From positions 132,370,001 through 132,434,000 of the forward strand of contig CM097884.1 of the NCBI GenBank assembly GCA_044892505.1: 64,000 nt of DNA, written 5' to 3'. How positions within the stretch are numbered: the stretch's first letter is position 1; the number at the start of each line of letters is the position of its first letter. The translations under genes were made by a program, and so were the position numbers. The notes beneath the pieces were generated by a model that searched no databases, was not told the origin of the DNA, and saw only the letters and a list, made by a program, of their open reading frames with translations. Of the stretch, positions 19,852-56,887 are shown in pieces. The DNA comes from Schmidtea nova (lineage: Eukaryota).

Positions 19852-20828
19852 AGTAGGGGATAGTGAGGACTCGAGCACAGTTTTTTCAACTAGCAACGGT
19901 TGCTAGAGTAAATACACACATCATTATATTCCTCAATGCAGGTGTTGCCAAGGTGAACGTGCACACACATCAATATATATATTCCCTGAGGAGCTTGTTG
20001 CCAGGGTAAACACACATTAATAAATAGTTCCCGAGAAACCTGTTGCTAGGGTAAAAACACACACATGTAAGTATTGTATCCATGAAGATGATGCCCGGAT
20101 AACCACACATATCAATATATAGTCCCCCGAGAGGATGTTACTAAGGTAAAAACAAACACATACCATTATTATTATTATTACCTGTACCAAGTAAAATGAG
20201 ATAATAATTTTATTATTGAATGACATTTTTTTTGTTTTTGTTTTAATTAAGTGACTAACATTTCGAATAGCTGTTCCGCATATTTTAAATTGATAACTTT
20301 CGATATATAATTTAATTTTAGTTCAATGAACTTTNNNNNNNNNNNNNNNNNNNNNNNNNNNNNNNNNNNNNNNNNNNNNNNNNNNNNNNNNNNNNNNNNN
20401 NNNNNNNNNNNNNNNNNNNNNNNNNNNNNNNNNNNNNNNNNNNNNNNNNNNNNNNNNNNNNNNNNNNNNNNNNNNNNNNNNNNNNNNNNNNNNNNNNNNN
20501 NNNNNNNNNNNNNNNNNNNNNNNNNNNNNNNNNNNNNNNNNNNNNNNNNNNNNNNNNNNNNNNNNNNNNNNNNNNNNNNNNNNNNNNNNNNNNNNNNNNN
20601 NNNNNNNNNNNNNNNNNNNNNNNNNNNNNNNNNNNNNNNNNNNNNNNNNNNNNNNNNNNNNNCCAAATATATATTTTGCACAATATATTTCGAGAACTTA
20701 ATTCTCTTCATCAGGTGCTACCCAATCTTACATCGAAATATAAATCACATAAATCGATTTATTCGAACAAATTAGTATTAATTTTTAAAATAAAATATAT
20801 ATTTTAAATTTTATTATAGTCAAAAAAT

Positions 20829-36716: not shown

Positions 36717-38417
36717 ATGTCTAAATTTTGCAAAAGTATATTATTTTAAAAATATTTCTTTAATTGACTTTTTAAATAATTTTCAGAAAATGACTACAAT
36801 TATATTAAACCAAAATTCCACAATACCTACAAAAAGAACAGTGGCGTTTACGTAAATGTCAAAGGAGTTAACAATTTTGTAGATTCTACACCATCACTTA
36901 AATGGCTTAAAGTGACCTGTTTAACACATTCTCCGAGTTGCTGTGACGATATTGTGACTTTAATTGAATATCTTTGTACGCGAAACACTGGTAGAAGATC
37001 TCAATTTAAAGCCTGCAATGTTTTATTTGAGAAAGGGATGCTTGAGTTTTATATCAAAATGAAGAAATCGGACGTCGAATACGTGATTAGTAATTCATGT
37101 AAAATCGAACATTACCGCTTGAAATGCTATAAAAATGAAGATGTTCACGTTCCACGTGAATTACCAGCGAGTTGGATAGAAGTTCTAAAACAAGCTTTAA
37201 AAGTACGTTACAGCATAAATCCCCAAAACAATGAAGCTGAATTGAATCTCTCCTATTTCTATGAAGATAAAATCGTTTTGGAAAACAATTTAGTGCTTCA
37301 ATTCTCATCTACGCGAGTCTTTGAAAGTGTTTTAAACATCCTTAAGCAAGAATTGAGTGAATTAACGAATCTAAATCTGAGTAACAACAATATCAAAAGT
37401 ATGTATAAACTGAATTCGTTTGTAAGCTCTGTAAAAATCACTAAACTCGACATTAGTAACAATAGAATGAGTAATTTAAATGAATTAAACAGTTTACAAA
37501 CGAGTTCAATTATTGAATTGAACATTTCCGGCAATCAGTTCCGTAAATCGAGCATTCAAGATTTGAAAAGAGATGTGAGAAAAATCTTGCCTCAATTGAA
37601 ATGCTTAAACGGGATGAAACTGGAAGAAACTGTTGCAATTGCCGGAGATGCATTGAAATCATCGAAAACTTTACCTGCGGTAATAGCAAACAGCCAAAAA
37701 GATAGTCCACCTTTCAATTTCGTGTGGAATTATTTCACTAAATTCGACGGAAAAACCCGCGATGAATTGTGTGAGTTTTATAACTCAGATTCCATTCTCA
37801 CGGTGGCAACCTTTGGGGATTCTTTACCTTATTACAAATCGAACAGTTGCAATTTCTTTTATTATAAAGACGCTTTAAAACGACCGGAAAATATCAAACG
37901 AGGAAAAGCGCAAATTTTAGGAACATTTGTCAATTTCCCAGCTACAAAACATTTAGAAGAGACTCTTAGTGTTGACATCGTCTGTTCCACGGAATCGTTT
38001 CTCATGTTGATTGTGTCGGGAGCCTTTGTTGAGTTGCCTAGCAATAGTAGCAGTAAAACCGGCAGTTCTTATCGAGTTAGGGAGTTCAGTAGGTCAATGA
38101 CAATTCTTTCAGGGGGAATCATCATTCAGGAATTCATCCAATTGATGCCGAATGATTCCAGCCTTTATCAGAGGTTTAAGTCCAATGTCGAGTTGATAAA
38201 AGAACAAATGGAATTTGGGAAATCTCACAAAGATCTGGAAAATTTATCGAGCCACGAAATCGAGATTGTGAGACAATTTAAAACATTTAGCGGGATGAAT
38301 GTGCCGATTTGTTTGAGGTTTCTTAAAATGTTTAGTGATTTGCAATCTGCTTCCGAAGAGTTTAAAAAGCTTCAAGCTAATGGAGGAATCCCCCTTGAAG
38401 CTTTTAGAGATGAATAA
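36717..38417 (+). CDS. NXF1: NXF1/TAP-family nuclear RNA export factor paralog B (predicted 549 aa; exons 36717-36735 and 36787-38417)
   Basis: RRM-like, LRR (LNLSNNNI, LDISNNRM, LNISGNQF), NTF2-like (FVWNYFTKFD..RDEL..FY) and TAP-C (RQFKTFSGMN...GGIPLEAF). A 51-nt GT..TTTCAG intron (36736-36786) gives the N-terminus MSKFCKKNDYNYIKPK, matching paralog A's MPKFIRKNKKDYDYIKPK. Confidence 0.88.
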
Positions 38418-41864: not shown

Positions 41865-42770
41865 AGTAGAGTAGGGGGAGCGCCCAAGAACAGGAACAGA
41901 CCCCCCCTCCCCCCACTAAAAATTTTTTACCCCCCCCAAAAAAAAAATTTTGTTTAAATGAAGTGAATTTTTAAAAATTTTTTATTTTGTTTAAATTAAG
42001 TGAATTTTTAATTTTTAATTTGTTTAAATGAAGTGAATTTTTTAATTTTAATTTTTTTGTTTAAATGAAGTCAATTTAATTTATTATTTTNNNNNNNNNN
42101 NNNNNNNNNNNNNNNNNNNNNNNNNNNNNNNNNNNNNNNNNNNNNNNNNNNNNNNNNNNNNNNNNNNNNNNNNNNNNNNNNNNNNNNNNNNNNNNNNNNN
42201 NNNNNNNNNNNNNNNNNNNNNNNNNNNNNNNNNNNNNNNNNNNNNNNNNNNNNNNNNNNNNTTAATTTTTAATAATTTATTTAATTAATTTATTTTTAAT
42301 AATTTATTTTTAATAATTTTTATTAATTTATATTAATTTATATTAATTTATATTTAATAATTTATATTTATTTTAATTTATATTTAGTAATTTATATTTA
42401 TTTTAATTTATATTTATTTTTATATTTTCGGTTCAGTGGGAAAAAACTTAGAAAAATTTTTAAAATAATAATATTAATAATAANNNNNNNNNNNNNNNNN
42501 NNNNNNNNNNNNNNNNNNNNNNNNNNNNNNNNNNNNNNNNNNNNNNNNNNNNNNNNNNNNNNNNNNNNNNNNNNNNNNNNNNNNNNNNNNNNNNNNNNNN
42601 NNNNNNNNNNNNNNNNNNNNNNNNNNNNNNNNNNNNNNNNNNNNNNNNNNNNNNNNNNNNNNNNNNNNNNNNNNNNNNNNNNNNNNNNNNNNNNNNNNNN
42701 NNNNNNNNNNNNNNNNNNNNNNNNNNNNNNNNNNNNNNNNNNNACTAATATTTCATCACAGTGTAAATAA
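41865..42770. repeat. Maverick left TIR (~0.9 kb, partly N)
   Basis: Reverse complement of 55968-56887; inner boundary at ...CACAGTGTAAATAA; contains repeated TTTAAATGAAGTGAATT units. Confidence 0.92.
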
Positions 42771-42813
42771 AGTAGAAAATTAATAAAAACAAAAAGAAAT
42801 AAAATACAAATAT

Positions 42814-45800
42814 TTATTGAAATAAATCATCTTCGTCATCTTCTTGAATATCTTCATCTTCGGTAATTGAATCCCCCATAACTGTAAAACTTTCCCTACA
42901 ATGTCCATAAGCAATACTTTTATTTTTCTCAACCCAAAGTCTCTTATCATCGAGGTTAGTAAGTGCAATTTTTGAAAACTTATTAGTAAAAATTTGATGA
43001 TTTTTACTCACAAATCGAGACTGCTCTACTGAAACTATAGTATTATTTCTATAACAATCAAGATAAGACCGATGCTTCAGTTTAGTATCTTTCAAACAGA
43101 CGCCTTTAGCCTTTAAACATTCCTTATCACCTAAAAGACTATAACATTTAGGTCTAAGAAAAACCCATTCCTTATATTTATGACCCTTATTTTCGTCTTT
43201 AAACTTTCCTATAACAGAATCAAGTTTTTTCGAATATAAAGAATGACTAGGGTCGTAATTCGATGTATCCAAAAGACAATCTCTAACCATCGCAGGTAAC
43301 AGAACATCTAACCTACAATTCTTAATCTCCAAGAAAAAAGAGTCAGTATCGCCTGCAACTATATTAATCTCACAGTTGAATTCATTGCGATATTTTTGCA
43401 ATTCTTCATACTGGAGTTGATACATTCTAAGTTTAGATAAATCCAGTACACTTTGGCCAATGTAGCTGGGTCTATCTAAACACACAGAGTCCTTATTAAG
43501 CAAGACAGAAATTAGATCATCATCAATCCTATAAGTTTTTCTAAAGGTAGGTTTTGATGTATATGTAATCAGTTTTGATGCTGAATTACAAAGTCGTAAA
43601 TTGAGTCTTTTCTTAAGATTTTCGACAGTTTTTCCATAAAGACTATTATTTAAAAGTTTGTAATAGTTTTTATCTAAAACAAACGATGAAGCTGCCCTAA
43701 GTTCAGTGTTCGTATCAATATATTTTTTAAAGATGGGTTTCTGTTTGTACTGAACAGCCCGATGAACTCGTGTTATTTTAACACCCAAAGAAACAAATAA
43801 TTTTAAAAGTCTCCAATGAACAACATAGTTGAACTTTGGATAATGCGTAAGCATTAACTTCTCAACTTTAGAATTGGGAGCACACATTTTCTCTGCTGCA
43901 ACCGGAAAATCATTTAATTTATCGTGAATTTCAACTGGGATTACCAAGTCAACTTCAAATGTTACACCGATTGTTAAAAGTTCCAAGTCAGCATCCATCA
44001 AATTAATTAATTTATTTAATTTTTTCTCTTCATTAATCCATTTAAATTTACCACAAGGTAATTTTTGGCTTAAGGCCCAACCGTACAAATTATTAATGTC
44101 GATGTAAAGTAGTTCAGTCGTTTCGGAGGATACTACATGATGCTTGTTGACAAATGTCAAACCACCACGGATCCCCCTTCGAAAAAATTATACATCTCCA
44201 TATCCTGGAGCAACTCAATAGGTTCTTCCAAGGTAAGAAGCGCAGAAGCCCACGACATACCTGGAATCCCCAAGAAATTCAACGGTTCTAACCTATTATG
44301 AGAAATTGACTTGGCTCTAAACTGTTGAAAGAAATCAGCAAGAAGAAAGACATCAAGTTTTAAGTATATCATCATATATAGTCACAAAGAGTTTGACAAT
44401 TAGTTTCCCTCCAAATAACTAATGCCTTGTCGTATTCAGCCTGCTTAACACCCTCCCAGATTGGTGGTAATTCATATGTTTCATTCAAGACTTCTAACGA
44501 TGTTGCAAAATCATAAGGAAAAATACCCTTACAATCAACAATAGTCCCGGTGAATTCAGATCGCGTTAAAGGTAATGAAGTCAATGTTTTAACCGCATCA
44601 TTTAAACTGGAGTTAATAAACTGACAAGAGTCAATGAATTTAATTGTTAAATCACCGACTCTTGCAGACAAAGTTAAGAATTTTTCACTCGTAGTTGGAA
44701 TACATGAGATTTTCCAATTTGAAAAGTTTGCCAATCCATATTTAAGAATATGGTGCATGTCATACCCTTTTAAATTATGAAACACAACCGATAGTTCCTT
44801 ACGAATCTGTCTAGTAAGATTGCATTTTAAGCAAGCAGCTCCCAAATATTCACCAGTGTAGTGATCATGGTCTCTGACTGGTTGTACTAAAGTTTTCCTA
44901 CAGAGATAACAATTTGTAGATGATGCAAAAGATATTTTATTTTCAAATGTCATAATAAGTGGTTTTTTGAAATTGTTTTTATAAAAAGGAAAAACAATTT
45001 CTTCACCTATATTATTAATTTCAGCAAGAAAATTAGTAACGCAATCAAGACCTAAGAAACTCCTGTAAATCTTTTCTCCAGTGAAATTATTTACAAGTAA
45101 AAGACCGGCAGATATTGGGACATGTCTTTGAAAGTACTTATCATCAGCAGGTAAGATTGCCTCAAAATCGGCGTAAACAACAAAAGGTGGAGTAATTGTT
45201 TTGCCCCAATTACTAAATGTCAAATAAGGATTTTTAGGCAAAGTATATAGAGTTGTGCCCAATTGATTTTTAGAACACAACTCTTGATGACGAACAAAAG
45301 AATCTTGATATCTAAACCCATTCAAGCAACGATGGCACCATATACTTTGAATACGAGTACCAGATATCGATTTATTGTCAAGATTTAAAAGCCTATCAAG
45401 ATTGGTTACTGCTATATAATGAAAAGAGTCACCATTTTGTAAAAGAATCAAGTTAATAGGGATTCCGTCTACTACTTTAGACCTATGAATTATGTCAATA
45501 CACGGATGTTTGAAAACTTCAGGCTTAGTGTCTAGAATTCCAGATTCATCATATGAAAGTACGTTAATCGCATATCCCGGGTTTTTAGCTTCAAACTTTG
45601 GGATATTGCAAAGACGCATAGGCAAATCAGAAGGACTAAAGTTAACATCAGAAAGATTGTAATTACTGATCCTATGTTTATTTTTACGGCCAGATATCTC
45701 ATCATATTTAATAATTACTAAAACAGAATAGATAAAGCACAAGTCATCAGAATTCTGAACATTTACAACACAATGTTTTGACTTTAAAGATTCAGGAGTG

Positions 45801-46846
45801 TCAATACCACCGTAACCTATCAACCTACTTATCTCAGAAAATTTGGTTAAGATGAAATGAATTTCATTAATTTTATTAATTATCCAGTTACTGCCTCTAT
45901 TATTAATTAATGTAATTTTTTCATTAAGAATATTAATGCCATCGTCTATAAAGGTATCTGTGACAGGTTTTGCAGAGTTTGAAATAACTATAGTTTGAAA
46001 AGCACCATCTTTTTCAAACTCAACTTCGATGCAAAATTGAATTTTAACCGTTCCCATGGTTTCAATTACATTATTTAATTTATTAATTAAATTATCAGGT
46101 ACAAACATGCTTTTTAAATTCAAGTTAGTCACAATCATTTTCACTATAGCATGTGATTTATTTAAATCAAATTTTACAACAGGTAAAATGGAGCCACCAA
46201 CCTGTACTTCAGGAACTAAAGAGTATTTATCGTCAGAAATTTTATCAAAAGAACCACCAATTTGAATATTATCGATAGGAACAAAAGAGTCTACAACCAC
46301 AAAATCAGAAAGATTATTTAAATCAAGAATGTTATCAGGAATGATATCATTATCACGAATGGTATCATTATCAAGAATGTTATCAACAGGAATGGTATCA
46401 TTACCATCATCATCAGAAATTACAACTATATCTGAAGGATCAATTGAAGGATTATTTGAAGAAATATCACCAGAAAGAACTGACTTGTTAATTTTGACTG
46501 GAATTGGACTAATTACATTACATTTTCTTTTAATCGGTAATTTAAAAATTGATTTTTTAGATGTTTTAAATTGATCTAAATGATCGCAATGAGTATTGTA
46601 AAAGACAATATACGAAGAGGACGATGTAGATTTGCAAAAAGGACAAATGTAGTAGGTTTTACAGTTATGACGGTATGCATAATATCTTTCCATTAATTCA
46701 TGGCATTTTACATCATGAATTGTGGAGGTGCAATATTTTTGATATAAATTGCCTATAATATTTAAAAATAATTTAAAAATAATGATCAAAATAATGATAA
46801 AAATTATGATAAAAATATTATGATAAAAATTATGATAAAATATCAA
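42814..46846 (-). pseudogene. Protein-primed DNA polymerase B with two frameshifts (~44375 and ~44175); true start uncertain
   Basis: ExoI VYADFE, endonuclease VII-like insert CYLC..VRDHDHYTGEYLGAAC..CN, ExoII FHNLKGYD, polymerase motifs YIDINNLYG, KLLNNSLYGK, AGDTDS and RPKCYS. Conserved DYMMIYLKLDV and EGGIRGG are restored by removing an AT dinucleotide and adding one G. Confidence 0.95.
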
Positions 46847-46904
46847 TGATGTATATCAAGTGTGTATACACACATTCAAAATATCGTAATATATATTTAT
46901 TGAT

Positions 46905-46945
46905 TATGATTGGTCAAAATAATTTAAAAATTACTATATAAACGA
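46905..46945 (+). promoter_or_regulatory. Candidate bidirectional Pol II promoter (CCAAT box and TATATAAA) between pPolB and the spliced ORF
   Basis: ATTGG at 46909-46913 and TATATAAA at 46935-46942, which ends 31 nt before the ATG at 46974. AT-richness lowers specificity. Confidence 0.45.
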
Positions 46946-46973
46946 CTTATAAAATTAAAATAATCATTAAAAA

Positions 46974-47502
46974 ATGTATCAACTGAAAAGTAAGATTAAT
47001 TAATTTTAAATGATTATTTTTAAATTTTCTTTTTCTAGAATCGAAAAGAATGTCAAAACAAGAAATAATGAAGATTATTCTTGAGGAAAATCCTATTTCT
47101 TCATCTAATTTGGCATTGAATTCACCAGTTCAATTCATGCAATACTCGATGGAGTATTTGAAATATCCAATCAAATATTCATTTAAAGTAATTAATTAAA
47201 AATTATTAAAATCTAATTAATATTATTTACAGGAACCTGTTACATTGAAACAATGTCAATTCAATATTCAGGTTGGAAAAATCGGGGAAATTGATAGAAA
47301 GAATCTATCTGAAATTTTAATGCTAATAAATAAAGACATTCAATTCAACGAGGAATTCACATATATGAACTGCAAAAAAGAAACAGATTTAGGCAAATTA
47401 GATGATAATTCAATGTATCAAATTCAAATTATCTTACAAGGATTTAAACAAACTGAAAACGTGATAAAGCTTTTATGGAAAATTACTGATTTTCATGAAT
47501 AA
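46974..47502 (+). CDS. Maverick three-exon hypothetical protein (144 aa; exons 46974-46989, 47039-47187, 47233-47502)
   Basis: Introns GTAAGA..TTCTAG (49 nt) and GTAATT..TTACAG (45 nt) join three exons in frame with ORF 47245-47502. Confidence 0.75.
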
Positions 47503-47584
47503 ACTCTTGTTTAATTTATTTGTTCTTTATTTTTAATAATTGATTTTTACATTAAATATATTTTAAAATATATAAATTTATAAA

Positions 47585-47925
47585 ATATATTTATTATAAA
47601 AATTAATTAAATTCATATAATGTAAAAATATATTTATTATAAAAATTAATTAAAATCATATAATGTAAAAATATATTTATTATAAAAATTAATTAAATTC
47701 ATAAAATGTAAAAATATATTTATTATAAAAATTAATTAAATTCATAAAATGTAAAAATATATTTATTATAAAAATTAATTAAATTCATAAAATGTAAAAA
47801 TATATTTATTATAAAAATTAATTAAAATCATATAATGTAAAAATATATTTATTATAAAAATTAATTAAAATCATATAATGTAAAAATATATTTATTATAA
47901 AAATTAATTAAATTCTTATAAAAAT
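47585..47925. repeat. 43-bp AT-rich tandem array (~8 copies) between convergent Maverick genes
   Basis: Unit ATAAAAATTAATTAAAWTCATAWAATGTAAAAATATATTTATT. Confidence 0.9.
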
Positions 47926-47963
47926 CTATTAATTATTAATTAAAATCATATTATATAAAAAAT

Positions 47964-48155
47964 CTAATTGATAATAATAGTTTCATCAATATATAAATAC
48001 TTACATTTAAGTTTCGTTGTCATAATATTGCTTGGTATAATTTTCTTTGTCAATGTCATAATATTGCTTGGTATAATTTCCTTTGTCATTGTCATAATAT
48101 TGCTTGGTATAATTTCCTTTGTCATAATATTATTTGATATAAATTTCATTGGCAT
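47964..48155 (-). CDS. Small repetitive hypothetical protein (63 aa)
   Basis: Three 36-nt repeats encoding (E/K)IIPSNIMT; candidate 5'UTR intron GTAAGT..TTTCAG at 48215-48168. Confidence 0.35.
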   Translation of the reverse strand: MPMKFISNNIMTKEIIPSNIMTMTKEIIPSNIMTLTKKIIPSNIMTTKLKCKYLYIDETIIIN

Positions 48156-48477
48156 TATTTCAAAAATCTGAAAAGAAAAATTAATAAATATTCATAAAAA
48201 ATTAAACTTACTTACTTAAGTTTGCGTGTTGTTAAAAATGTCGTTTATTTAAACGAAATTATTTTTAAATTAATGTAATTTAATTAAATATTTACAATAT
48301 GTAATTTAAAATTAATTAAATATTTACAATATGTAATTAATTAAATATTTTACAATATTAAAATTAATTAAATATTTTACAATATTATTTTCAACTATAA
48401 TTTAACAAATTCAAACATAAAAATTCCATAAATAGAAAAAGTCGTTTTATAATAAAAGTCGTTTTATAATAAAAATT

Positions 48478-48856
48478 TTATTTCATATATTTTAGCCAAG
48501 CTAAACAATGTTGCCCACAGGTTTTTGTCATTGGATTTTGATACCGAATTCTGTTATATTCTATTGGTTTTAACATTGACGATAATTTTTTCAATAATAT
48601 CAGTGGATAATAAAATCCCATTGGATCAAACACGTATATTTTATCGGGTTTATTATAAATTGCAAGCCAATGTTCACCTTTGAGATTTGATGATTGAGTA
48701 TTGAATTTCAATGCTTTATTCACATCTATATACGGTATTTTATCTAGAGGAAAAACTCCTAGAAATTCCGATCCAATCAATTTTCTAGCAATCTGATCTA
48801 CCTGAATTGAACTAAAATCAATAAAATTTAATTATTTAAAATAAATCTTACTTCAT
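48478..48856 (-). CDS. Adenain-type (Ulp1/adenoviral) cysteine maturation protease, 112 aa, two exons (48856-48852, 48811-48478)
   Basis: GEHWLAIY, FDPMG and YQ...KTCGQHC give the H-D-(Q)-C catalytic set. A 40-nt GTAAGA..TTTTAG intron supplies the start MNSIQVDQI. Confidence 0.92.
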
Positions 48857-48914
48857 TTACTTTTTAAATAATTAAAAATTAGTTTATATTAAACGAGTAT
48901 TGTTTGAGCTCTGC

Positions 48915-50141
48915 TCAAACCAGTATTGTTCGATTAGCTGTAATTTGTAATTCCTTTTCAAAAACACCATATACAATTACAGAAACTGATTCAGTCAATG
49001 GTGTACCAAATTTAATATCAAGTCTTACATTACCTTGTTGTGGTAATTGACTTTGATTTAGGTCAAAATCTGGAGCCAAAACGAAGGTGAAAAAAGGATA
49101 TTTGCTTTTCCAATCTGATAAAGTAATACCGCAATTCATACTCTTATTCAGGTAACCAAGGTTACGGACAATAGATTGCATATAACTAGTACTACAAATA
49201 TCATTTTCAAAATCTTGAGAATATTTTTCACGATAATCACTTCCTTTCGATAAAGTTAATGATTTGACATTAAAATGATCGTAAATAGAATAAGTTTCAG
49301 TAAAAGAACCACTATGTCTTTTATTTCCTTGAAATGCTACAAGAATAAAGTTTGGTAATCGTCTATCGCCAAAGATTTGTTCCTTATAAAATGAAGAAGA
49401 ACCCATTGGCAATGAAAATTCTACAACTTCCTTATTTCTTATTGGATAAATTGCATTTCTTGTACCAAGTCCAATTTGATGCCCAGCATAAACTGATGGT
49501 TCTACTCGAACTCTTCTAACCATTAATTTTGCCTCTAATAATTCAATTATAGGTTCAATTTTTGTACATGTTAAACTATTGGATGGATTTGATCTCGTCA
49601 ATTTAATTTGAACACTAACACCTGGTAATAAATACTTGGGCTGTTCCATGAAATCGAAATGTAATGGAGAACAAATTGAAAATGGTTTTGATTTTGCAAT
49701 CCATGCTTTTCTAGTAAGATCATGGTCATTGTATCCCATTGGAGTTAAAGATGTGTGTTTTGTATCACTATTGTAGTTGAGAATAGTTTCAATCATGGCT
49801 TTGTGTGTAAATGTGTCATTTCCCCTTTCAACTTTAGTAGAATTGAAAATTAATTCGGCTTCTTTAAAAAGAGTTTGGAAAAAGAAATTGTTGGGAGTAA
49901 CATCAGCATCCAATCCTAAATTTTCACCCGATTTGTTTACAACTTTGACCTGAAGAGATAGTAAAGTATCGTTCAAATCTAAATATTCAGTTTGAGATCC
50001 ATTGATGTAAAATTGAATAGATGATGTCCCAGCATCTGTAATTGAATTTGTTGGGTAAATATCTTCAAATGCACCATGTTCAATTACTGCTTGTGGAGAT
50101 GGTCTATCAAAAAGACATAATTCAGATTTTGCACTAATCAT
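48915..50141 (-). CDS. Major capsid protein (double jelly-roll, Polinton PY-type)
   Basis: 408 aa; KSELCLFD.P..Q, IQFYING...YLDLNDT, QPKYLLPGV.V.IKL.R and LPNFILVAF motifs of Polinton MCPs. Confidence 0.9.
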   Translation of the reverse strand: MISAKSELCLFDRPSPQAVIEHGAFEDIYPTNSITDAGTSSIQFYINGSQTEYLDLNDTLLSLQVKVVNKSGENLGLDADVTPNNFFFQTLFKEAELIFNSTKVERGNDTFTHKAMIETILNYNSDTKHTSLTPMGYNDHDLTRKAWIAKSKPFSICSPLHFDFMEQPKYLLPGVSVQIKLTRSNPSNSLTCTKIEPIIELLEAKLMVRRVRVEPSVYAGHQIGLGTRNAIYPIRNKEVVEFSLPMGSSSFYKEQIFGDRRLPNFILVAFQGNKRHSGSFTETYSIYDHFNVKSLTLSKGSDYREKYSQDFENDICSTSYMQSIVRNLGYLNKSMNCGITLSDWKSKYPFFTFVLAPDFDLNQSQLPQQGNVRLDIKFGTPLTESVSVIVYGVFEKELQITANRTILV

Positions 50142-50545
50142 TTTTCAAAAATTGTTCCATATCCTTTCATTCTTTTGTTTATATGTTTCTTCATATTTCT
50201 TTTTCGTTTAAGAATTCCGCCATTTTGTTTATTTTCAGTTTTATTTTCGTTAAACACATCAGTCACTTTACTAATTGCTTGTGGCAAATGATGAATCACA
50301 TCGGGCAATGAATCTTTAATTTCAGAAATAGCATTGGATTTTAGTGCAGGTAAAATCTTTGAATTATTATTTAACACATCATTGGCAGTTTTCATACCAA
50401 AATTTCCAATACGTCTAAGAATTGGTAATGCAAATCTACCTATCGTTTTCAACCAACCAGTTCCATATTGTTTACCTACAAAATACGGTAATTCTCCACC
50501 TGATTGGCTGTTGCTATAGAAACTGATAATATCTGGATTATTCAT
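50138..50545 (-). CDS. Putative virion core protein with protease cleavage motifs
   Basis: QSGG.LPYFVGKQYGTGWLKTIGRFALPIL resembles the conserved Polinton QxGxG core ORF; basic C-terminus; lies between mCP and MCP. Confidence 0.7.
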   Translation of the reverse strand: MNNPDIISFYSNSQSGGELPYFVGKQYGTGWLKTIGRFALPILRRIGNFGMKTANDVLNNNSKILPALKSNAISEIKDSLPDVIHHLPQAISKVTDVFNENKTENKQNGGILKRKRNMKKHINKRMKGYGTIFEK

Positions 50546-51560
50546 TTATTTTACGGAAATGTAATGTCAAGTAAGTTTTGTCTTCTTTTGCAAATTTAAC
50601 TATTTTTCCACTGTCATCACGAATATTGATTTCAATATTGTTTATATATGTGGAACTGACCGGTAAATACATTGGATCTTTCTCAACAATTTGAACCAAA
50701 TCACCCTTTTTATGTTTTTCAACCCAAACACATTTCAATAGGGGAACTGACATGTCACCAACAAGAATTGGTTGAATAATATTCGTATAGATGAACATTT
50801 GTTGATGAAGTTTTAAAACTTGTGGATAATATACGCCATCAATAATTTTGTCAAAGAATTCTTGTTTAACTAATCCTAATGAATTTGCTAAATTCCTACT
50901 AAATTTTACACTAGTTATATCATCTTCAAGAATTAATTTAATTAATTTTCCTTCTTTAATATCAATCACTTTAAATGGATGTGGATAAAAAGTTTCAATT
51001 TGATCAGATAATTCAGTAAGATTATTTATTATTAAATCGTCTTTGAAATTATCTGTGTATTCAACAGGAAAAGTATAAGTTATAGTAAATCGTATAGTAT
51101 CATCAAGTTTTTTATTTTCATTTGCTGGAATTTTAATTTTGTTTAATTCATCATTAAATGTCACAGCTTTTTCTTGAAACCCTAATTTTTTAGCTTCATC
51201 AACACTATCAAATATTATTTGAAATGGAAAATATTTACAATTTACATTTAAAATATTGCCATCAATATACATTAAATAATAATTAGAATCGTGACTTATA
51301 TCATATTCTTTCTTTTGTTGGTTAAAATTGAAATATTCATAACTAGAATGTAATTCATTTCTAATAAATTTTATACTTGAACTATTATAAAATGGAAATT
51401 CATTGTACACAAAAGTAAAATCCATAAGAGCAACTTCCCAACTACCATCCAAATAAATTGGGTTTTGATATTCAACATTGAATTTTCCAGCTTTATTATT
51501 GGGATGTGTCAATGGACAAGAATTGCTTGGTAAATTAACATAAAAATCTTTTTTAATCAT
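50538..51560 (-). CDS. Minor capsid protein (penton) copy 2
   Basis: FYVNLPSN...QNPIYL..WEVAL at the N-terminus and MFIYTNII.P..VGD..VPLL...IEINIRDDSG...LTLHFRK at the C-terminus. Confidence 0.9.
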   Translation of the reverse strand: MIKKDFYVNLPSNSCPLTHPNNKAGKFNVEYQNPIYLDGSWEVALMDFTFVYNEFPFYNSSSIKFIRNELHSSYEYFNFNQQKKEYDISHDSNYYLMYIDGNILNVNCKYFPFQIIFDSVDEAKKLGFQEKAVTFNDELNKIKIPANENKKLDDTIRFTITYTFPVEYTDNFKDDLIINNLTELSDQIETFYPHPFKVIDIKEGKLIKLILEDDITSVKFSRNLANSLGLVKQEFFDKIIDGVYYPQVLKLHQQMFIYTNIIQPILVGDMSVPLLKCVWVEKHKKGDLVQIVEKDPMYLPVSSTYINNIEINIRDDSGKIVKFAKEDKTYLTLHFRKINE

Positions 51561-52590
51561 TTATTTTACGAAAATGTAGAGTCAAATGAGTCTTTGTATC
51601 TTTTGAAAATTTAATTAATTTTCCACTGTCATCACGAATATTGATTTCAATGTTGTTTATAGTTGATGTTGAAATCGGCAAATACATTGGATTCTTTATT
51701 TCAATTTGTACAACTTCGCCTTGGTCATATTTCTTGATCCAAATTGATTTAAGGAGGGGAACTCGTACATCTCCAACAGTTACTGGTTCAATAATGTTGC
51801 TGTAAATGAACATTTGCTGATGAAGTTGTAAAATTTTGGGGATTTTTACACCAATTATTTCTGTATCAGTATATGTTTGTTTCTGTAGACCCAGAGATTT
51901 GGTTAAATTTGAATCAAAAGTAATTTTTGAAATATTATCCTGAAGAATAATTTTAACCAATTCATTATTGACAAGTTTCAATTCTTTAAATGGAGATGGA
52001 TTAATTTTCATTAAATATCCTTGCAATTCCGGTAATGACGTTATGAATAATTCATCTTGAAAAAAATAATCATTAACAGTTTTAATGTCATAATTTATTA
52101 AAATTCCAAATTGTTCAAGACTATTATCATTCGTGAATTTTGGTAATTTTAAACGACAATGGTCATTTTCACTTGTAATTGATATATTTTCCAATCCAAA
52201 ACTTTTTGCATGTTCAAGATCTGGAAATGTAATTTTAAATGGAACATGTGGGCAAACAATCACTAAATAATTATATTTTTCAATAAATACATCAGTGTCT
52301 GAACTAGGTTGAGAAACTATAACTTGAATTGTTTTATTTTGATTATTAATTCTCAAATAACTAATTTCTTGAATTTCTCTTTTAGTTTCAATTTGAATAA
52401 AAGAATTACTATAATACGGAAACAAATTATACACAAAAGTAAAATCAATCAAAGCAACTTCCCAATCGTCATTACTATTTAAATAAATCGGATTTTGAAA
52501 TTCTACATTAAAATTACTAGCTTCATTATTAGGATAAATAAGAGGACATGCATTGCTAGGCAAAATCATATAAAACTGGTTTTCTTTCAT
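51553..52590 (-). CDS. Minor capsid protein (penton) copy 1
   Basis: Same terminal motifs as copy 2 (FYMILPSN, WEVALIDF, VGDVRVPLLK, LTLHFRK). Confidence 0.9.
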   Translation of the reverse strand: MKENQFYMILPSNACPLIYPNNEASNFNVEFQNPIYLNSNDDWEVALIDFTFVYNLFPYYSNSFIQIETKREIQEISYLRINNQNKTIQVIVSQPSSDTDVFIEKYNYLVIVCPHVPFKITFPDLEHAKSFGLENISITSENDHCRLKLPKFTNDNSLEQFGILINYDIKTVNDYFFQDELFITSLPELQGYLMKINPSPFKELKLVNNELVKIILQDNISKITFDSNLTKSLGLQKQTYTDTEIIGVKIPKILQLHQQMFIYSNIIEPVTVGDVRVPLLKSIWIKKYDQGEVVQIEIKNPMYLPISTSTINNIEINIRDDSGKLIKFSKDTKTHLTLHFRKIND

Positions 52591-52595
52591 AATAT

Positions 52596-53681
52596 TTATT
52601 TAATCAATTGTTTTTCAGATATCCAACTTGGAGTTTCATATCCATGCCATTTAACGTAATATTGTTTATATTTCCCATCAGTTTTGGTTTTTAAAATCTT
52701 TTGAATTCTAAAAACTGTGGGAGCTGGAATAACTTGAAGTTCTTGTTCGTAGAATTTACCCTCGATTACATTGTTTTCATGATCGGAAATAGTATACATG
52801 ACAGGATTTTGATTAGTATCAAGATTTGAGATTTGATATACTTCATCACTCCAATTACTATCAAAATTTTTGATGAAGGGAGAAGCACTAATTTTACTCA
52901 TTCTCACATAATCACCTACTTTATATTTCGGTTTTTTATTAATTGATTTTAATCTATCTTTTATCCATCCATCAAAATTATTATTTGAATATACATCGAT
53001 AGGTTTCATTCTATTTAATCCCGAATGCGGTGAACGATTGTAACTGGAAATAATTTTCGGTAAAACATTTATCCATGTTTTGTTACCTTGATACACAAAA
53101 AACTTTTTCAAGCGATCTCTTAAAGTACGATTAAATCTTTCAACATGAGCAGCTTTGAATTGAGAAAATACAGAATAATGATTGATTCCTTTGATCACTT
53201 CTTTTACTTTGCTGTTATAAAACTCTTTTCCTAAATTAAAATTAAATAATTTTTAAAAATTTAATTTCTTACCCAAATCAGTTTGTAAATTACGTGGCTT
53301 CCCATCTTTAAATAAAGATTCAATAGCCTCAGCCATTTCATTAGCAGATTTAGTTTTTGTTGGAATAGCTCGTGCATAACGGCTAAAAACATCAATACAA
53401 GTCAAAATATATTTGTAACCCTTGTTAATTTTAGAATATGGAATCATTTCCATCAAATCCATTTGCCATAAATCGTTACCCCCAAAAGTTTTATATTTGC
53501 GTGTAGGAAATCTTTTCAACATTGGTTTATTTAAACTATATGCCAATTGATCAGATAACCATTTCTGAGTTTCATTCTTTGAACTTTTTATTCTTTTTGC
53601 CAATTTTTTGACTGAACCAAAACCATCGGGATCTTTTGGGTTTGTCCATATCGTTTTTATATTCTTCATGATTTTCTTCAT
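52596..53681 (-). CDS. Retroviral-type integrase with C-terminal chromodomain (347 aa; exons 53681-53273 and 53230-52596)
   Basis: DDE triad WQMDL / QTDLG / HVERFNRTL and chromodomain YYVKWHGY..PSW. A 42-nt GTAAG..TTTAG intron (53272-53231) restores TDLGKEFYN. Confidence 0.93.
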
Positions 53682-53743
53682 TAATACAACAATTTGTTAG
53701 AATATTTAAATCTATATTATGTTTATTCGGTTCAGAAATTTTA

Positions 53744-54073
53744 TTACCCATTTCTTAAAGATGAGATTGCGCTTATTGCTGATAATACTATTGGAATTAA
53801 TGTACCGAGAAACCCACCCTTTTGTTTATATATTATTTTTCGCATAAGATTTCTATTTTTGGTATTCACTAATGACAAAAGTGAATTTTTATGTTTTTGT
53901 AGTTCAATTTTCTTTGATCTACTAATATTTACATTACCATGAACAATATTAAAAACGATTTCAAGTAAATCATCAATAACAAAGGGTGGGAAAGCTTGTA
54001 AAATTATCATTCGCTTATTTGTTGGAGCTTTAACCAAAGCATTAAAATACGGTAAACTACGTTCAAATTTCAT
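53744..54073 (-). CDS. Putative core/membrane-active protein with adenovirus pX-like C-terminus
   Basis: QKGG|FLGTLIPIVLSAISAI resembles adenovirus protein X (xRGG|xLPxLIPxIAAAI) and related Polinton ORFs. Confidence 0.72.
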   Translation of the reverse strand: MKFERSLPYFNALVKAPTNKRMIILQAFPPFVIDDLLEIVFNIVHGNVNISRSKKIELQKHKNSLLSLVNTKNRNLMRKIIYKQKGGFLGTLIPIVLSAISAISSLRNG

Positions 54074-54103
54074 GATTAAAATTATTGTATATATTTATTT
54101 CGT

Positions 54104-54289
54104 TTATAATTTTATCCACTTCTTAACTTGTTTCTTTCTTTTACCAATCTTTTTGGTAACTTTTTTAACTAATTTAGATTTTCGATCAACTTTTTTAAGA
54201 ATTTTTTGATCAACTTTTTTAAGTAGTTTTTGATCAGCTTTTTGAATAGCTTCTTTATTTAACTTGACAATTACTTTTTTAAATGACAT
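54104..54289 (-). CDS. Small lysine-rich protein (61 aa), possible DNA-condensing protein
   Basis: Very basic, with repeated K.DQK.LK; tightly packed between the ATPase and the pX-like gene on the same strand. Confidence 0.55.
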   Translation of the reverse strand: MSFKKVIVKLNKEAIQKADQKLLKKVDQKILKKVDRKSKLVKKVTKKIGKRKKQVKKWIKL

Positions 54290-54310
54290 TATTATTTCAT
54301 TTATTTATTT

Positions 54311-54934
54311 TCAATTTTGTTTATAAACCGTGACTCCTTTTTCGTTAAATATATCCGTTCGGATACGTAAATCATCAGGACATTGTTGAGTAAAATCAAA
54401 GAATAAATATCCATGAGAAACTTTAGTAGCATCTTGAAATGAATTAATTAAGAATTTCCTATCATTAGGGTAAGCTTGTCTTGCTAGAAAATCAATAATT
54501 GTAGCATCTCTTGGGTTTTTGAATATAACCAAGTATTGAACATTTAAATTACGAGTTCTGTGACTACCACCTTGATGAAATAAATTTTGAGTAATGAAAA
54601 TTACAGTAACTCCTAAATGTCTACTAATTTTTGTGAATAAATTATTAAAATCTTTTTCTTTATTTGCTTCTTGGTACAAATCATCGATAATTATAACATC
54701 GCCTTGTCGTAATCTAGATGACCAGTTTTTATCAAACCCTTTTATAATTGTCATTTTTAATTTGCAGAATTGATCTTGAGTCAGTCCATGTTCTTCATCA
54801 GCTCCCCGATGCCAGTAAATTTTATTGAATTTTGATTTAAACATTTTTGATTGCAACAATTTACATACAAATAATGTTTTTCCACTACCACTTGAGCCCA
54901 CTATTTGATAAACTGCATCATTTCTTACTTCCAT
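54311..54934 (-). CDS. A32/FtsK-like DNA packaging ATPase
   Basis: Walker A GSSGSGKT, Walker B IIIDD, and SRHLGVTVIFITQNLF. Confidence 0.95.
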   Translation of the reverse strand: MEVRNDAVYQIVGSSGSGKTLFVCKLLQSKMFKSKFNKIYWHRGADEEHGLTQDQFCKLKMTIIKGFDKNWSSRLRQGDVIIIDDLYQEANKEKDFNNLFTKISRHLGVTVIFITQNLFHQGGSHRTRNLNVQYLVIFKNPRDATIIDFLARQAYPNDRKFLINSFQDATKVSHGYLFFDFTQQCPDDLRIRTDIFNEKGVTVYKQN

Positions 54935-54990
54935 TTTTATTTAATTAATTAATTAATTTAATATTGTTTATATTTATTCAATTTATAAAA

Positions 54991-55473
54991 ATGATAAGTA
55001 ATATTAATTATATGGGCAAGTGTTTAGTTCCAAACATGTTATTTCCTGTTGGGAAACCCCAGCAAGTTATAGATAGGAGTGGAAAGTACCCTATTTTATT
55101 TTTCAGATCGGGAAAATGCCGTGTAATGGGTTGTAAGCAACCGTTAAAACAAGATGATTTGAAATATAAAATTACCGATTTAAAAATTCAATCGATCACC
55201 ATAACATTGGATATGGGTAAATCCATAAATTTATACGAATTGCAAAATAAAACAGAGTGCTGGTACGAACCCGAAATATTTCCAGCTTTAAGATTAATAA
55301 ATTATAACCCTATTTGTATTAATATTTTTTCAAGTGGAAAAGTTGTAATATTAGGAATTAAAACATTGGATTATTTTAATCAAGTAAATGAAATTAAAAA
55401 TTATATTAATTCATTAATTAATAATGAATTAATTGATGAAAAATATCTCGATTTATTATTTAATTTTGTTTAA
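54991..55473 (+). CDS. TATA-binding-protein-like protein encoded by the Maverick (160 aa from ATG 54991)
   Basis: Two TBP-like repeats: ILFFRSGKCRVMGCK vs LIFSSGKMVCTGAK; DLKIQS..LD..INLYEL vs DFKIQN..CD..IRLEGL; YEPEIFPAL vs YEPELFPGL; NIFSSGKVVILGIK vs LIFVSGKVVLTGAK. Confidence 0.88.
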   Translation: MISNINYMGKCLVPNMLFPVGKPQQVIDRSGKYPILFFRSGKCRVMGCKQPLKQDDLKYKITDLKIQSITITLDMGKSINLYELQNKTECWYEPEIFPALRLINYNPICINIFSSGKVVILGIKTLDYFNQVNEIKNYINSLINNELIDEKYLDLLFNFV

Positions 55474-55508
55474 ATACATTGTTATTTTACAAATCCATAT
55501 TTTTGAAA

Positions 55509-55894
55509 ATGTCTAAAAGTAAGTATTATTTTTAATTAACTATATTATTAATATTTTTAATTTAGCTTATTTATTTGAAGTGGTCCTGAAGAAAATTCAA
55601 GAATTATATCCAAAAATAAAAGATTCTTTGGATTACTGTGCGCCAGAGTTATTGGTTCATAAGATATACAAACTTACTGGGATCAATATCGAACAATTGC
55701 TCGAGATTCATTACGATATGGTGCTAGGAGCTGGAGTCAAATGCATTGAAAATTGCATTGTTTGCAATGATTCACTGAGAGTATCCTGCGTAAACGGATG
55801 TGCATGCTGTCATGATTTTAAAAGAGATCATTCGGTGCATATCTTAATGTCAGAAATGCGTAAAGCATATTATAACGACATTTATAATTTATAA
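55509..55894 (+). CDS. Cys/His-rich hypothetical protein (112 aa; exons 55509-55518 and 55566-55894)
   Basis: A 47-nt GTAAGT..TTTAG intron joins MSK to TYLFEVVLKK in frame; C-x3-C-x2-C...C-x3-C-x-CC-H..H cluster. Confidence 0.7.
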
Positions 55895-55967
55895 TAAAGT
55901 TTTGTGATTTAGTTGTTCTTTATTTTTATTTCAAAGTTTTTTCTTAATAATTTACTATTTTATTGTA

Positions 55968-56887
55968 TTATTTACACTGTGATGAAATATTAGTGTTATT
56001 NNNNNNNNNNNNNNNNNNNNNNNNNNNNNNNNNNNNNNNNNNNNNNNNNNNNNNNNNNNNNNNNNNNNNNNNNNNNNNNNNNNNNNNNNNNNNNNNNNNN
56101 NNNNNNNNNNNNNNNNNNNNNNNNNNNNNNNNNNNNNNNNNNNNNNNNNNNNNNNNNNNNNNNNNNNNNNNNNNNNNNNNNNNNNNNNNNNNNNNNNNNN
56201 NNNNTTTTCCCACTGAACCGAAAATATAAAAATAAATAAATATTAATTAATAAATATAAATTAAAATAAATAAATATAAATTATTAAATATAATTTATTA
56301 AATATAAATTAAAATAAATAAATAAAAATTAATAAAAATTAATAAAAATAAATAAAATTAATAAAAATTATTAAAAATAAATTATTAAATATAAATTATT
56401 AAAAATAAAAATAAATTATTAAATATAAAAATAATTAAATATAAATTAAAAATAATTAAAAATTATTAAAAATAAATTAAAAATAAATTAAAATAAATTA
56501 AATTATTAANNNNNNNNNNNNNNNNNNNNNNNNNNNNNNNNNNNNNNNNNNNNNNNNNNNNNNNNNNNNNNNNNNNNNNNNNNNNNNNNNNNNNNNNNNN
56601 NNNNNNNNNNNNNNNNNNNNNNNNNNNNNNNNNNNNNNNNNNNNNNNNNNNNNNNNNNNAAAATAATAAATTAAATTGACTTCATTTAAACAAAAAATTA
56701 AAATTAAAAAATTAACTTCATTTAAACAAAATTAAAAATTAAAAATTCACTTAATTTAAACAAAATAAAAAATTTTTAAAAATTCACTTCATTTAAACAA
56801 AAATTTTTTTTTGGGGGGGGGGGTAAAAAAATTTTTAGGGGGGAGGGGGGGTCTGTTCCTGTTCTTGGGCGCTCCCCCTACTCTACT
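55968..56887. repeat. Maverick right TIR (~0.9 kb, partly N)
   Basis: Ends ...CTCCCCCTACTCTACT, followed by TSD GTCCTG. Confidence 0.92.

What the first reader, a model, noticed from the sequence alone, without database searches (positions are those of the whole stretch)
46974..55894. Intron-rich Maverick: at least five coding-region spliceosomal mini-introns matching host intron size
Seen in sequence: GT-AG introns of 40 nt (protease, 48851-48812), 42 nt (integrase, 53272-53231), 49 and 45 nt (46990-47038, 47188-47232) and 47 nt (55519-55565), plus a candidate UTR intron (48215-48168). Each coding intron restores an in-frame product; in the integrase and protease it restores conserved motifs or a canonical N-terminus. 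The host-type NXF gene has a similar 51-nt intron. Established: Maverick genes are generally described as mostly intronless. Inference: this lineage has gained introns adapted to the host spliceosome, implying nuclear Pol II expression and long co-evolution. ORF-only annotation would miss or mis-call these genes.
Basis: partly seen in the sequence, partly recalled or inferred. Interest (0 to 1): 0.72.

Follow-up and report, generated by a model that had tools for sequence, protein, structure and literature searches.

The report
Maverick lineage with conserved protease intron
A virus-like jumping element (Maverick/Polinton) in an unidentified AT-rich eukaryote has its integrase, its capsid-maturation protease and two small genes split by tiny ordinary introns, and related elements keep the protease intron at the same spot, so this lineage very probably needs the host's nuclear splicing machinery although such elements are usually described as intron-free.

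Summary
All six GT-AG segments (40-49 nt) lie exactly where stated, inside a 15-kb Maverick bounded by inverted repeats and a 6-bp target-site duplication. Homology, not the motif, shows most are introns. The integrase intron splits one codon of QTDxGxEF, which is contiguous in 116 of 120 listed homologs. The protease intron, five bases after the A of the start codon, recurs at the same place (37-47 nt, different interiors) in 4 of 4 close relatives that reach the protease (three independent) and in 0 of 15 distant ones. Unspliced, it gives a two-codon peptide. Relatives carry other introns at other places, so the clade keeps gaining or losing them. 'Intron-rich' and 'host-matched size' are overstated: capsid, ATPase and polymerase-core genes have none, and only one candidate host intron (51 nt) was available. 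No spliced reads were seen. Nine literature searches found no description of spliceosomal introns in animal-type Maverick core genes. This scan has already noted intron-bearing Mavericks in several other genomes (unchecked notes). Verdict: real; new variant of a known kind.

The parts
41865..56887 (.). Whole Maverick/Polinton element, about 15.0 kb including assembly gaps; 5'-AGTAG...CTACT-3' ends; 6-bp target-site duplication GTCCTG at 41859-41864 and 56888-56893
41865..42780 (.). Left terminal inverted repeat (about 0.9 kb, interrupted by N runs; inner end approximate)
   Evidence: 214 of 217 aligned bases identical to the right arm over the outer 224 nt; arms I2, I3, I7
55970..56887 (.). 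Right terminal inverted repeat (interrupted by N runs; inner end approximate)
42814..46855 (-). [quoted passage not shown]
   Evidence: Pfam DNA_pol_B_2 1e-18; tblastn to L018
46974..47502 (+). Accessory gene g1, three exons (46974-46989, 47039-47187, 47233-47502); function unknown; homolog in L018
   Evidence: 28% identity over 144 aa to the L018 homolog, E 3e-14 pairwise; no Pfam, PHROG or Atlas hit
46990..47038 (+). 49-nt GTAAG...TCTAG intron, phase 1, 16 nt after an ATG; coding or 5'-UTR
   Evidence: alternative in-frame ATG at 47050
47188..47232 (+). 45-nt GTAAT...TACAG intron, phase 0, in g1
   Evidence: L018 homolog runs through this position without an insert and has its own 43-nt intron 19 codons upstream
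47480..47995 (.). AT-rich 43-nt tandem array between two converging genes
   Evidence: family D5
47964..48155 (-). Short repeat-built ORF (about 64 aa) just downstream of the candidate UTR intron; may not be a gene
   Evidence: (ORF 48191-47964)
48168..48215 (-). Candidate non-coding intron, 48 nt (or 44 nt from a second GTAAG donor at 48211); an AATAAA lies between the protease stop and this intron, so it may belong to the 5' UTR of the short ORF
   Evidence: no homology test possible
48478..48856 (-). Adenain-type maturation protease: 5-nt coding exon (48856-48852) plus exon 48811-48478 with H-D-Q-C motifs
   Evidence: Pfam Peptidase_C5 E 0.0014, below the curated cut-off; 1508 hits at E<=0.001; motifs
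48812..48851 (-). 40-nt GTAAG...TTTAG intron, phase 2 of codon 2 of the protease; position conserved in L010 (40 nt), L014/L015 (47 nt) and L018 (37 nt)
48915..50141 (-). Major capsid protein, double jelly-roll, no intron
   Evidence: AlphaFold2 model pLDDT 76, pTM 0.79; Foldseek to iridovirus, PBCV-1, mavirus and Sputnik capsids, best E 3e-14
50138..50545 (-). 135-aa basic ORF conserved upstream of the major capsid gene in relatives; no intron
50538..52590 (-). Two paralogous ORFs (340 and 345 aa, 45% identical); minor capsid (penton) assignment is by position and recall, not tested; no introns
52596..53681 (-). Retroviral-type DDE integrase with C-terminal chromodomain, two exons (53681-53273, 53230-52596)
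   Evidence: Pfam rve 2e-9; Chromo 5e-4, below cut-off; D, D, E contexts
53231..53272 (-). 42-nt GTAAG...TTTAG intron, phase 1, two codons after the second catalytic Asp; contains stops in all frames
53744..54073 (-). pX/mu-like core protein gene; no intron
   Evidence: Pfam Adeno_PX 1e-5
54311..54934 (-). A32-like packaging ATPase; no intron
   Evidence: Pfam Pox_A32 2e-6
54991..55473 (+). TBP-like gene; no intron here, but the homolog in L005 has a 40-nt GT-AG intron
   Evidence: Pfam TBP 8e-17
55509..55894 (+). Accessory gene g2 (Cys-rich C-terminus): 10-nt coding exon plus exon 55566-55894; no homolog found
55519..55565 (+). 47-nt GTAAG...TTTAG intron, phase 1, 10 nt after the start; without it the first Met is residue 51 of 108
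36736..36786 (+). Candidate 51-nt start-proximal intron in a host NXF1/TAP-like gene, outside the element; absent from the paralog starting at 29408

Best explanation
This is a recently inserted Maverick/Polinton from a clade whose genes are transcribed in the host nucleus and spliced by the host's major (U2-type) spliceosome. The short AT-rich GT-AG segments are ordinary minimal introns. One of them, in codon 2 of the virion-maturation protease, is old: it was inherited across elements whose proteases are only 47-65% identical and is kept because the protease has no usable start codon without it. Others (integrase, g1, g2; in relatives the TBP-like, phosphatase and polymerase 5' genes) were gained or lost on single branches. 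They are tolerated because they are spliced out, and they need not have a function of their own. Shown by tools: the boundaries; exact restoration of collinearity with intronless homologs; conservation of position and splice signals with divergent interiors; presence/absence turnover. Inferred: splicing in vivo, Pol II nuclear transcription, gain rather than loss as the direction for most introns.
For: Integrase: 116 of the 120 listed homologs (of 161 found) show QTDxGxEF unbroken where the 42-nt segment sits. 60 of 62 loci covering both sides are exactly collinear. Protease: all 4 loci with integrase identity >=54% that reach the protease have ATG-NN-GTAAG...AG-T at the same position; 0 of 15 more distant loci do. 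That pattern ends at a given position in only 2 of 93,198 flanking positions. Intron lengths are 37, 40, 40 and 47 nt, and 4 of 6 protease-intron pairs are no more alike than shuffles (z<2; the highest is z 2.6). The natural protein P0157 (57% identical) begins MNSIHIQ, the start expected from splicing. The top three protease hits have intron-like false N-termini ending at the acceptor position, one showing the same read-through of start and donor as L014. g1: the window and L018 each run unbroken through the other's intron site. Phosphatase gene: intron in L010, none in L004; TBP-like gene: intron in L005, none in the window or L018. No flanking direct repeats at five window introns tested. 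No Rfam family at gathering score in 42744-53200.
Against: No spliced read or cDNA was seen. A loose intron motif is no commoner in the element than in shuffles. This copy's polymerase has two frame breaks, so the copy may be dead. The g1 first intron, the g2 intron and the 48215-48168 segment lack a homology test. DNA of the three closest integrase relatives (P0012, P0051, P0002) was not obtained, so sharing of the integrase intron is inferred only from their truncated protein records and a quick tree. Only three independent relatives support the protease intron (L014 and L015 are near-identical).
Confidence: 0.85

Rival explanations
1. The protease intron is a control switch, not just a tolerated passenger. 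Retention gives a two-codon peptide (Met-Lys or Met-Glu, stop), so regulated splicing of a capsid-protease read-through transcript would hold back the maturation protease until late, somewhat as alternative splicing times adenovirus late genes (adenovirus comparison recalled, not from a call).
For: Unspliced reading is M-K-stop or M-E-stop in the window and all four relatives. The protease ATG lies 1, 3 and 7 nt after the capsid stop in L010, L018 and L014 and 58 nt after it in the window, leaving little room for its own promoter in the relatives. It is the only intron found conserved across the clade, while others turn over.
Against: The immediate stop follows automatically from any phase-2 GTAAG donor. 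Start-proximal introns are hard to lose for mechanical reasons (established view on intron loss by reverse transcription, recalled). In P0126 the read-through suggests a donor without the immediate stop. Most distant proteases have no intron and work the same way. There are no expression data.
Confidence: 0.2
2. The segments are AT-rich insertions or decay products in a dying copy that happen to have GT and AG ends, and the genes are simply broken.
For: The copy has two polymerase frame breaks. The region is very AT-rich and a loose motif occurs at chance level. Barreat and Katzourakis read short Genewise 'introns' in degraded vertebrate Mavericks as insertions.
Against: It cannot explain the same GTAAG...AG segment at the same codon in three independent relatives. 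It also fails on the base-exact restoration of the integrase motif, the reciprocal g1 pattern, and the nearly identical terminal repeats with a perfect target-site duplication, which mark a young insertion. It remains possible for the 48215-48168 segment and the first g1 intron.
Confidence: 0.05
3. The introns come from an intron-generating transposon (introner) or were put in by a host-specific process after this element settled in this host, as the first reader's 'host-matched' reading implies.
For: Introners are reported in dinoflagellate Maverick-Polinton-like elements (PMC11957031). The integrase intron is confined to one small subclade. The host NXF-like gene has a similar intron that its paralog lacks.
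Against: Window introns are not copies of one another (best pair z 2.4 among 55 pairs tested, all AT-rich) and have no flanking direct repeats (0-1 nt, five tested). The protease intron predates this element. Relatives from other data sets have introns of the same size. The host and its intron-size distribution are unknown.
Confidence: 0.15

Closest known systems
Maverick/Polinton elements of vertebrates (Barreat and Katzourakis 2021, PMC8097293; passages read) and nematodes (Widen et al., bioRxiv 10.1101/2022.07.12.499685; passages read); 'adintoviruses' (PMC8502044; passages and section 3.4)
   Same: Terminal inverted repeats, 6-bp target-site duplication, pPolB, rve integrase, A32-like ATPase, adenain-type protease, double jelly-roll capsid, about 15 kb; a TBP-like gene is also labelled in the adintovirus paper's figure legend.
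   Different: Those papers state that core genes are intronless (introns only in nematode cargo genes such as wasp and krma). Here two core genes, integrase and protease, carry GT-AG introns, one conserved across a clade.
Introner-bearing Maverick-Polinton-like elements of dinoflagellates (Gozashti and Corbett-Detig, PMC11957031; abstract and first quarter of the text read)
   Same: Spliceosomal-type introns inside integrated Polinton-like elements.
   Different: Those are repeated transposon copies, mostly inserted after integration. The introns here are unrelated to one another, lack target-site repeats, and one is inherited between elements.
Ginger1 DNA transposons (Bao, Kapitonov and Jurka 2010, PMC2836005; passages read)
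   Same: Retroviral-type integrase genes of a DNA element interrupted by 1-4 mostly GT-AG introns, some position-conserved.
   Different: Single-gene cut-and-paste transposons without polymerase, capsid or protease.
Punuivirus, endogenous giant virus of Chlamydomonas (bioRxiv 10.64898/2026.10.09.758095; passages read)
   Same: An integrated DNA virus whose genes acquired host-like GT-AG introns that prokaryote-style annotation missed.
   Different: A nucleocytovirus with 506 genes. Its introns (mean 176 bp) are enriched in latency genes, and splicing was checked with RNA-seq. Here the conserved intron is in a virion-maturation gene of a 15-kb element, without RNA support.

Membership tests
Maverick/Polinton (polintovirus) | Terminal inverted repeats with AG-rich ends | tested here: met
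   214 of 217 aligned bases identical; AGTAG...CTACT ends
Maverick/Polinton (polintovirus) | 6-bp target-site duplication | tested here: met
   GTCCTG on both sides
Maverick/Polinton (polintovirus) | [quoted passage not shown] | tested here: met
   Pfam PF03175 E 1e-18; two frame breaks in this copy
Maverick/Polinton (polintovirus) | Retroviral-type DDE integrase | tested here: met
   Pfam rve E 2e-9; 161 homologs; D, D, E contexts
Maverick/Polinton (polintovirus) | Packaging ATPase and adenain-type protease | tested here: met
   Pox_A32 E 2e-6 above cut-off; Peptidase_C5 E 0.0014 below cut-off but with H-D-Q-C motifs and 1508 homologs
Maverick/Polinton (polintovirus) | Double jelly-roll major capsid protein | tested here: met
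   Model pLDDT 76; Foldseek best E 3e-14 to iridovirus, then PBCV-1, mavirus, Sputnik capsids
Maverick/Polinton (polintovirus) | Single jelly-roll minor capsid protein | not tested
   Two paralogous ORFs at the usual position; no Pfam or PHROG hit; not folded
Maverick/Polinton (polintovirus) | Intronless core ORFs (descriptive trait in PMC8097293 and the nematode preprint, not a formal criterion) | tested here: not met
   Integrase and protease are interrupted; this is the variant character
U2-type spliceosomal intron | GT...AG ends with a U1-type donor (GTAAG/GTAAT) and YAG acceptor | tested here: met
   6 of 6 segments
U2-type spliceosomal intron | Removal restores collinearity with intronless homologs | tested here: met
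   Met for integrase, protease and second g1 intron; not testable for the other three
U2-type spliceosomal intron | Branch-point motif | tested here: inconclusive
   TTAAT/CTAAT/TTGAT-like words in all five examined, but expected in such AT-rich DNA
U2-type spliceosomal intron | Excised from RNA in vivo | not testable with these tools
   No reads were laid on the junctions
Introner (intron-generating transposon) | Many near-identical introns with target-site duplications or terminal repeats | tested here: not met
   Eleven introns compared pairwise (the integrase intron not among them): no family; 0-1 nt flanking repeats in five; rest of the host genome not available
Group I/II self-splicing intron | Structured ribozyme of hundreds of bases matching Rfam models | tested here: not met
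   40-49 nt, almost no G+C; no Rfam match in 42744-53200

The most novel reading that the evidence does not exclude
A large, undescribed clade of Mavericks (about 80 integrases in the tree, SH-aLRT 99) has made virion maturation depend on host splicing. A start-codon micro-exon and minimal intron placed right behind the capsid gene act as an on/off gate for the maturation protease on a capsid-protease read-through RNA, so retention keeps the integrated element in transposon mode and splicing licenses particle maturation. It would also exclude expression in the cytoplasmic factory of a helper giant virus for this clade.
Probability: 0.15. Interest if true: 0.8.

Novelty: new variant of a known kind. 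Interest (0 to 1): 0.55.

Why it matters
Maverick core genes are described as intronless, and a large survey of integrated viruses in protist genomes used a prokaryote-style gene caller on that assumption (PMC10120064). Here that assumption produces false protease N-termini and truncated integrases in public protein sets. A splice-site pair kept in the maturation protease across elements only about 50-65% identical implies that a virion-assembly gene is expressed through the nucleus and under selection. That bears on the open question of whether Mavericks make particles and whether they do so autonomously or inside a helper virus's cytoplasmic factory. The junction also gives a clean RNA marker: a spliced protease read cannot come from genomic DNA. 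The clade also shows intron turnover in a small genome, useful for studying intron gain.

Tried and rejected
Host genome: none held, so copy number, sister copies and host intron sizes are unknown. Sequencing runs: 4 holders from one study, no RNA holder listed; no reads were laid, so splicing is untested. Host identity: the NXF-like gene found only 3 homologs, none with an organism name; cluster membership could not be looked up; the host stays unidentified. Viral contigs: five scans (integrase, integrase alignment, protease, capsid, capsid alignment) found no relative. Prokaryote genomes: none. g1: no Pfam, PHROG or Atlas hit; the model of the L018 homolog's second exon was poor (pLDDT 42) and was not searched. 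g2: no homolog. A loose intron motif is not above chance in the element. A scan for further host introns outside the element gave 9 motif hits, none in a recognisable gene. A scripted classifier of protease N-termini was offset by one residue and scored 0 read-throughs; the read-through cases were therefore judged by eye and the listing (5 of the top 30 hits: P0124, P0125, P0126, P0140, P0145). The protease start of distant locus L025 could not be resolved (no in-frame ATG found, no intron pattern). The two polymerase frame breaks were considered as introns and rejected: L018 aligns across both without an insert. The tree is the quick version; the careful search did not finish; it used 22 of 80 loci and 70 of 120 proteins. 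Literature: nine searches found no report of spliceosomal introns in Maverick core genes outside the dinoflagellate introner paper. Passages in PMC10748475, PMC11296320, PMC12220804, PMC12721341, PMC8547959, PMC6431247, PMC9004415 and 10.64898/2026.07.28.741278 gave no such case. Kapitonov and Jurka 2006, Pritham 2007, Repbase reports, subscription journals, all supplements and bioRxiv 10.64898/2026.10.13.758929 (seen only as a listing) were not read and could hold a prior description.
Full report
Observation. All begin GT (five GTAAG, one GTAAT), end AG, have 7-15% G+C and have stop codons in all three frames. In DNA this AT-rich the motif alone is weak. A loose pattern hit the element 8 times against 8.2 in block shuffles. 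The GTAAG subset gave 6 hits (5 distinct introns) against a mean of 1.6 and a maximum of 5 in 200 shuffles, and I wrote the pattern after seeing the introns. The case therefore rests on homology.

The element. The segments lie in a Maverick/Polinton running from 41865 to 56887, with AGTAG...CTACT ends, a perfect GTCCTG target-site duplication and terminal repeats identical at 214 of 217 aligned outer bases, so the insertion is young. It encodes a protein-primed polymerase, rve integrase, A32-like ATPase, pX-like and TBP-like proteins and an adenain-like protease. Its 408-aa ORF folds as a double jelly-roll capsid protein (pLDDT 76; Foldseek E 3e-14 to an iridovirus capsid, then PBCV-1, mavirus and Sputnik). 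The polymerase of this copy has two frame breaks, near 44375 and 44170. A relative aligns straight across both, so they are not introns; they may be real decay or assembly errors. The host could not be identified: no genome is held and the neighbouring NXF-like gene found three unnamed homologs.

Integrase intron. A search with the C-terminal part found 161 homologs and listed 120, mostly single ORFs of 340-380 aa at 47-79% identity. With the split codon written as X, the window reads QTDL-X-KEFYNSKVK, and 116 of the 120 have QTDxGxEF unbroken at that column. In DNA, 60 of the 62 loci (of 80 fetched) that cover both sides are exactly collinear; the other two are distant and differ by 6 and 274 nt. 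The four proteins that lack the motif include the window's three nearest neighbours (P0012, P0051, P0002), which group with it at SH-aLRT 98 in a quick tree. P0012 and P0051 start where a prokaryote-style caller would start downstream of such an intron. I infer, without having seen their DNA, that the intron was gained at the base of this small subclade.

Protease intron. This is the strongest result. Of 80 loci, 19 contain a protease hit. The four with integrase identity of 54% or more (L010, L014, L015, L018) all show ATG, two bases, GTAAG, an AT-rich body and AG-T ending at exactly the position of the window's acceptor, with lengths 40, 47, 47 and 37 nt. None of the 15 distant loci does; 14 of them have an in-frame ATG at the expected place (12 by script, L034 and L036) and L025 is unresolved. 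L014 and L015 are near-identical, so this is three independent relatives. Their proteases are 47-65% identical to one another and to the window, and the pattern ends at only 2 of 93,198 flanking positions tested. The intron interiors are mostly no more alike than shuffles (4 of 6 pairs z<2, highest 2.6). In the protein collections the three best hits, and two more among the top 30, have hydrophobic F/L/Y/I/N-rich false N-termini ending in S-S or S-T at the acceptor position, as expected from reading through the intron (judged by eye). P0157, 57% identical, begins MNSIHIQ, the start expected after splicing. The window and the L010/L014/L018 group fall in different parts of an 82-row clade (SH-aLRT 99), which suggests the intron is old in that clade. 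Unspliced, all five read Met-Lys-stop or Met-Glu-stop, and the next Met in the window is residue 64 of 110.

Accessory genes and turnover. The g1 gene (46974-47502) has a homolog in L018 (28% over 144 aa, E 3e-14). Each runs unbroken through the other's intron site; the L018 intron (43 nt) lies 19 codons upstream of the window's second intron. The first g1 intron could be coding or 5'-UTR because an ATG follows at 47050. g2 has no homolog, but its intron supplies the only early start. Relatives carry further GT-AG segments that the window lacks: 40 nt in the TBP-like gene of L005 (splitting a Gly codon that is intact in the window and L018), 46 nt in a phosphatase gene of L010 (absent from the L004 homolog), 49 nt near the polymerase 5' end of L018, and segments at the protease 3' end in L010, L014 and L015. 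The introns are not copies of one another and lack flanking repeats, which argues against an introner. Rfam finds nothing in 42744-53200.

The capsid, both minor-capsid-type genes, the ATPase, the pX-like and TBP-like genes and the polymerase core have no introns, so 'intron-rich' means five or six introns in about 14 genes. 'Matching host intron size' rests on one 51-nt candidate in an NXF-like gene (36736-36786), absent from its paralog at 29408. A scan of the rest of the window found no other intron in a recognisable host gene. Since relatives from other data sets have 35-49 nt introns too and the protease intron predates this copy, the trait is better read as a property of a Maverick clade than as adaptation to this host.

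How it most likely works. The element's genes are transcribed in the nucleus and spliced by the host's major spliceosome (inferred from intron type). The protease depends on splicing for its start codon, the integrase for its C-terminal half including the catalytic Glu (shown at sequence level). Most introns are probably tolerated passengers that come and go (0.85 for the overall reading). A regulatory role for the protease intron is possible (0.2): its ATG sits 1-7 nt behind the capsid stop in relatives and 58 nt in the window, and retention gives no protein. But the stop is an automatic result of a phase-2 GTAAG donor and there are no expression data. Decay with chance GT-AG ends is unlikely (0.05) except for the untested segments. 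No spliced reads were examined.

Comparison with what is known. Vertebrate and nematode Maverick core genes are stated to be intronless (PMC8097293, passages; bioRxiv 10.1101/2022.07.12.499685, passages). A survey of protist genomes assumed that endogenous viruses have no introns (PMC10120064, passage), and mavirus-like elements had none (PMC8547959, passage). Introns in related settings are known: introners in dinoflagellate Polinton-like elements (PMC11957031, first quarter read), group I introns in cryptophyte PLVs (PMC12220804, passages), GT-AG introns in Ginger1 integrases (PMC2836005, passages) and in an endogenous giant virus (bioRxiv 10.64898/2026.10.09.758095, passages). Nine searches found no description of inherited spliceosomal introns in Maverick core genes; Repbase, subscription journals and supplements were not seen. 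This scan's own notes report intron-bearing Mavericks in several other genomes, including a split protease and intron turnover; these are unchecked AI notes that I did not test, and none resembled this capsid sequence by shared words.

Verdict. The element meets every Maverick criterion tested and differs in carrying spliceosomal introns in core genes, one of them conserved across a clade. Real, a new variant of a known kind, interest 0.55; the splicing-gate reading has probability 0.15 and would deserve 0.8.

Noticed in passing
L018 has a 49-nt intron near its polymerase 5' end.
   Followed up: partly
window 42814-46855 (- strand): The polymerase of this otherwise young-looking copy has two frame breaks (near 44375 and 44170); decay or assembly error not decided. 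It also gives a weak endonuclease VII-like hit, below cut-off.
   Followed up: partly
window 9205-10253 (- strand): Degraded fragment of a second, different Maverick polymerase (43-59% identical to the main one) outside the element.
   Followed up: no
window 29408-30928 and 36717-38417 (+ strand): Two very divergent NXF1/TAP-like host paralogs with almost no introns; one has a 51-nt start-proximal candidate intron, the other lacks it and has a stop at about 29819. Only three homologs were found. Their upstream regions share a repeat (D9/D13/D15).
   Followed up: partly
window 50538-52590 (- strand): Tandem duplication of the minor-capsid-type gene (45% identical copies). L001-L003 also show two copies; L005, L009, L010, L014 and L018 have one.
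   Followed up: no
window 47480-47995 and 48018-48130: A 43-nt AT-rich tandem array and a shorter three-copy repeat that forms a repetitive ORF, lying between converging genes in the middle of the element.
   Followed up: no
L004 190-704 and about 1546-2730; L010 676-1240; L005 about 1710-2170: Relatives carry varied cargo upstream of the ATPase: a dual-specificity-phosphatase-like gene (intron in L010, none in L004), and RING- and TRAF-like genes; these names are my reading of the sequence, not from a family search.
   Followed up: no
L010 1-380: The start of this contig reads like a bacterial membrane-enzyme gene (recalled as mraY-like), so the contig may be chimeric at that end.
   Followed up: no
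P0002, P0140, P0149, P0157: Several close homolog records are fusions of Maverick pieces with unrelated host-like sequence (Prp19-like by Pfam PF08606; histone H2A-, tubulin- and RING-like tails by recall), probably gene-prediction artefacts on decayed copies.
   Followed up: no
window 2346-2392 (+ strand): An ATG followed after 8 nt by a 38-nt GTAAG...TTTAG segment, a start-proximal intron-like pattern outside the element with no recognisable gene behind it.
   Followed up: no
window 14853-17754, 19530-19853, 62134-63338, 13705-14154, 24928-25428: The element sits in a transposon-rich region: Ty3/gypsy-type gag-pol pieces, a Pif1-like helicase fragment and an IS1595/Merlin-type transposase fragment.
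   Followed up: no
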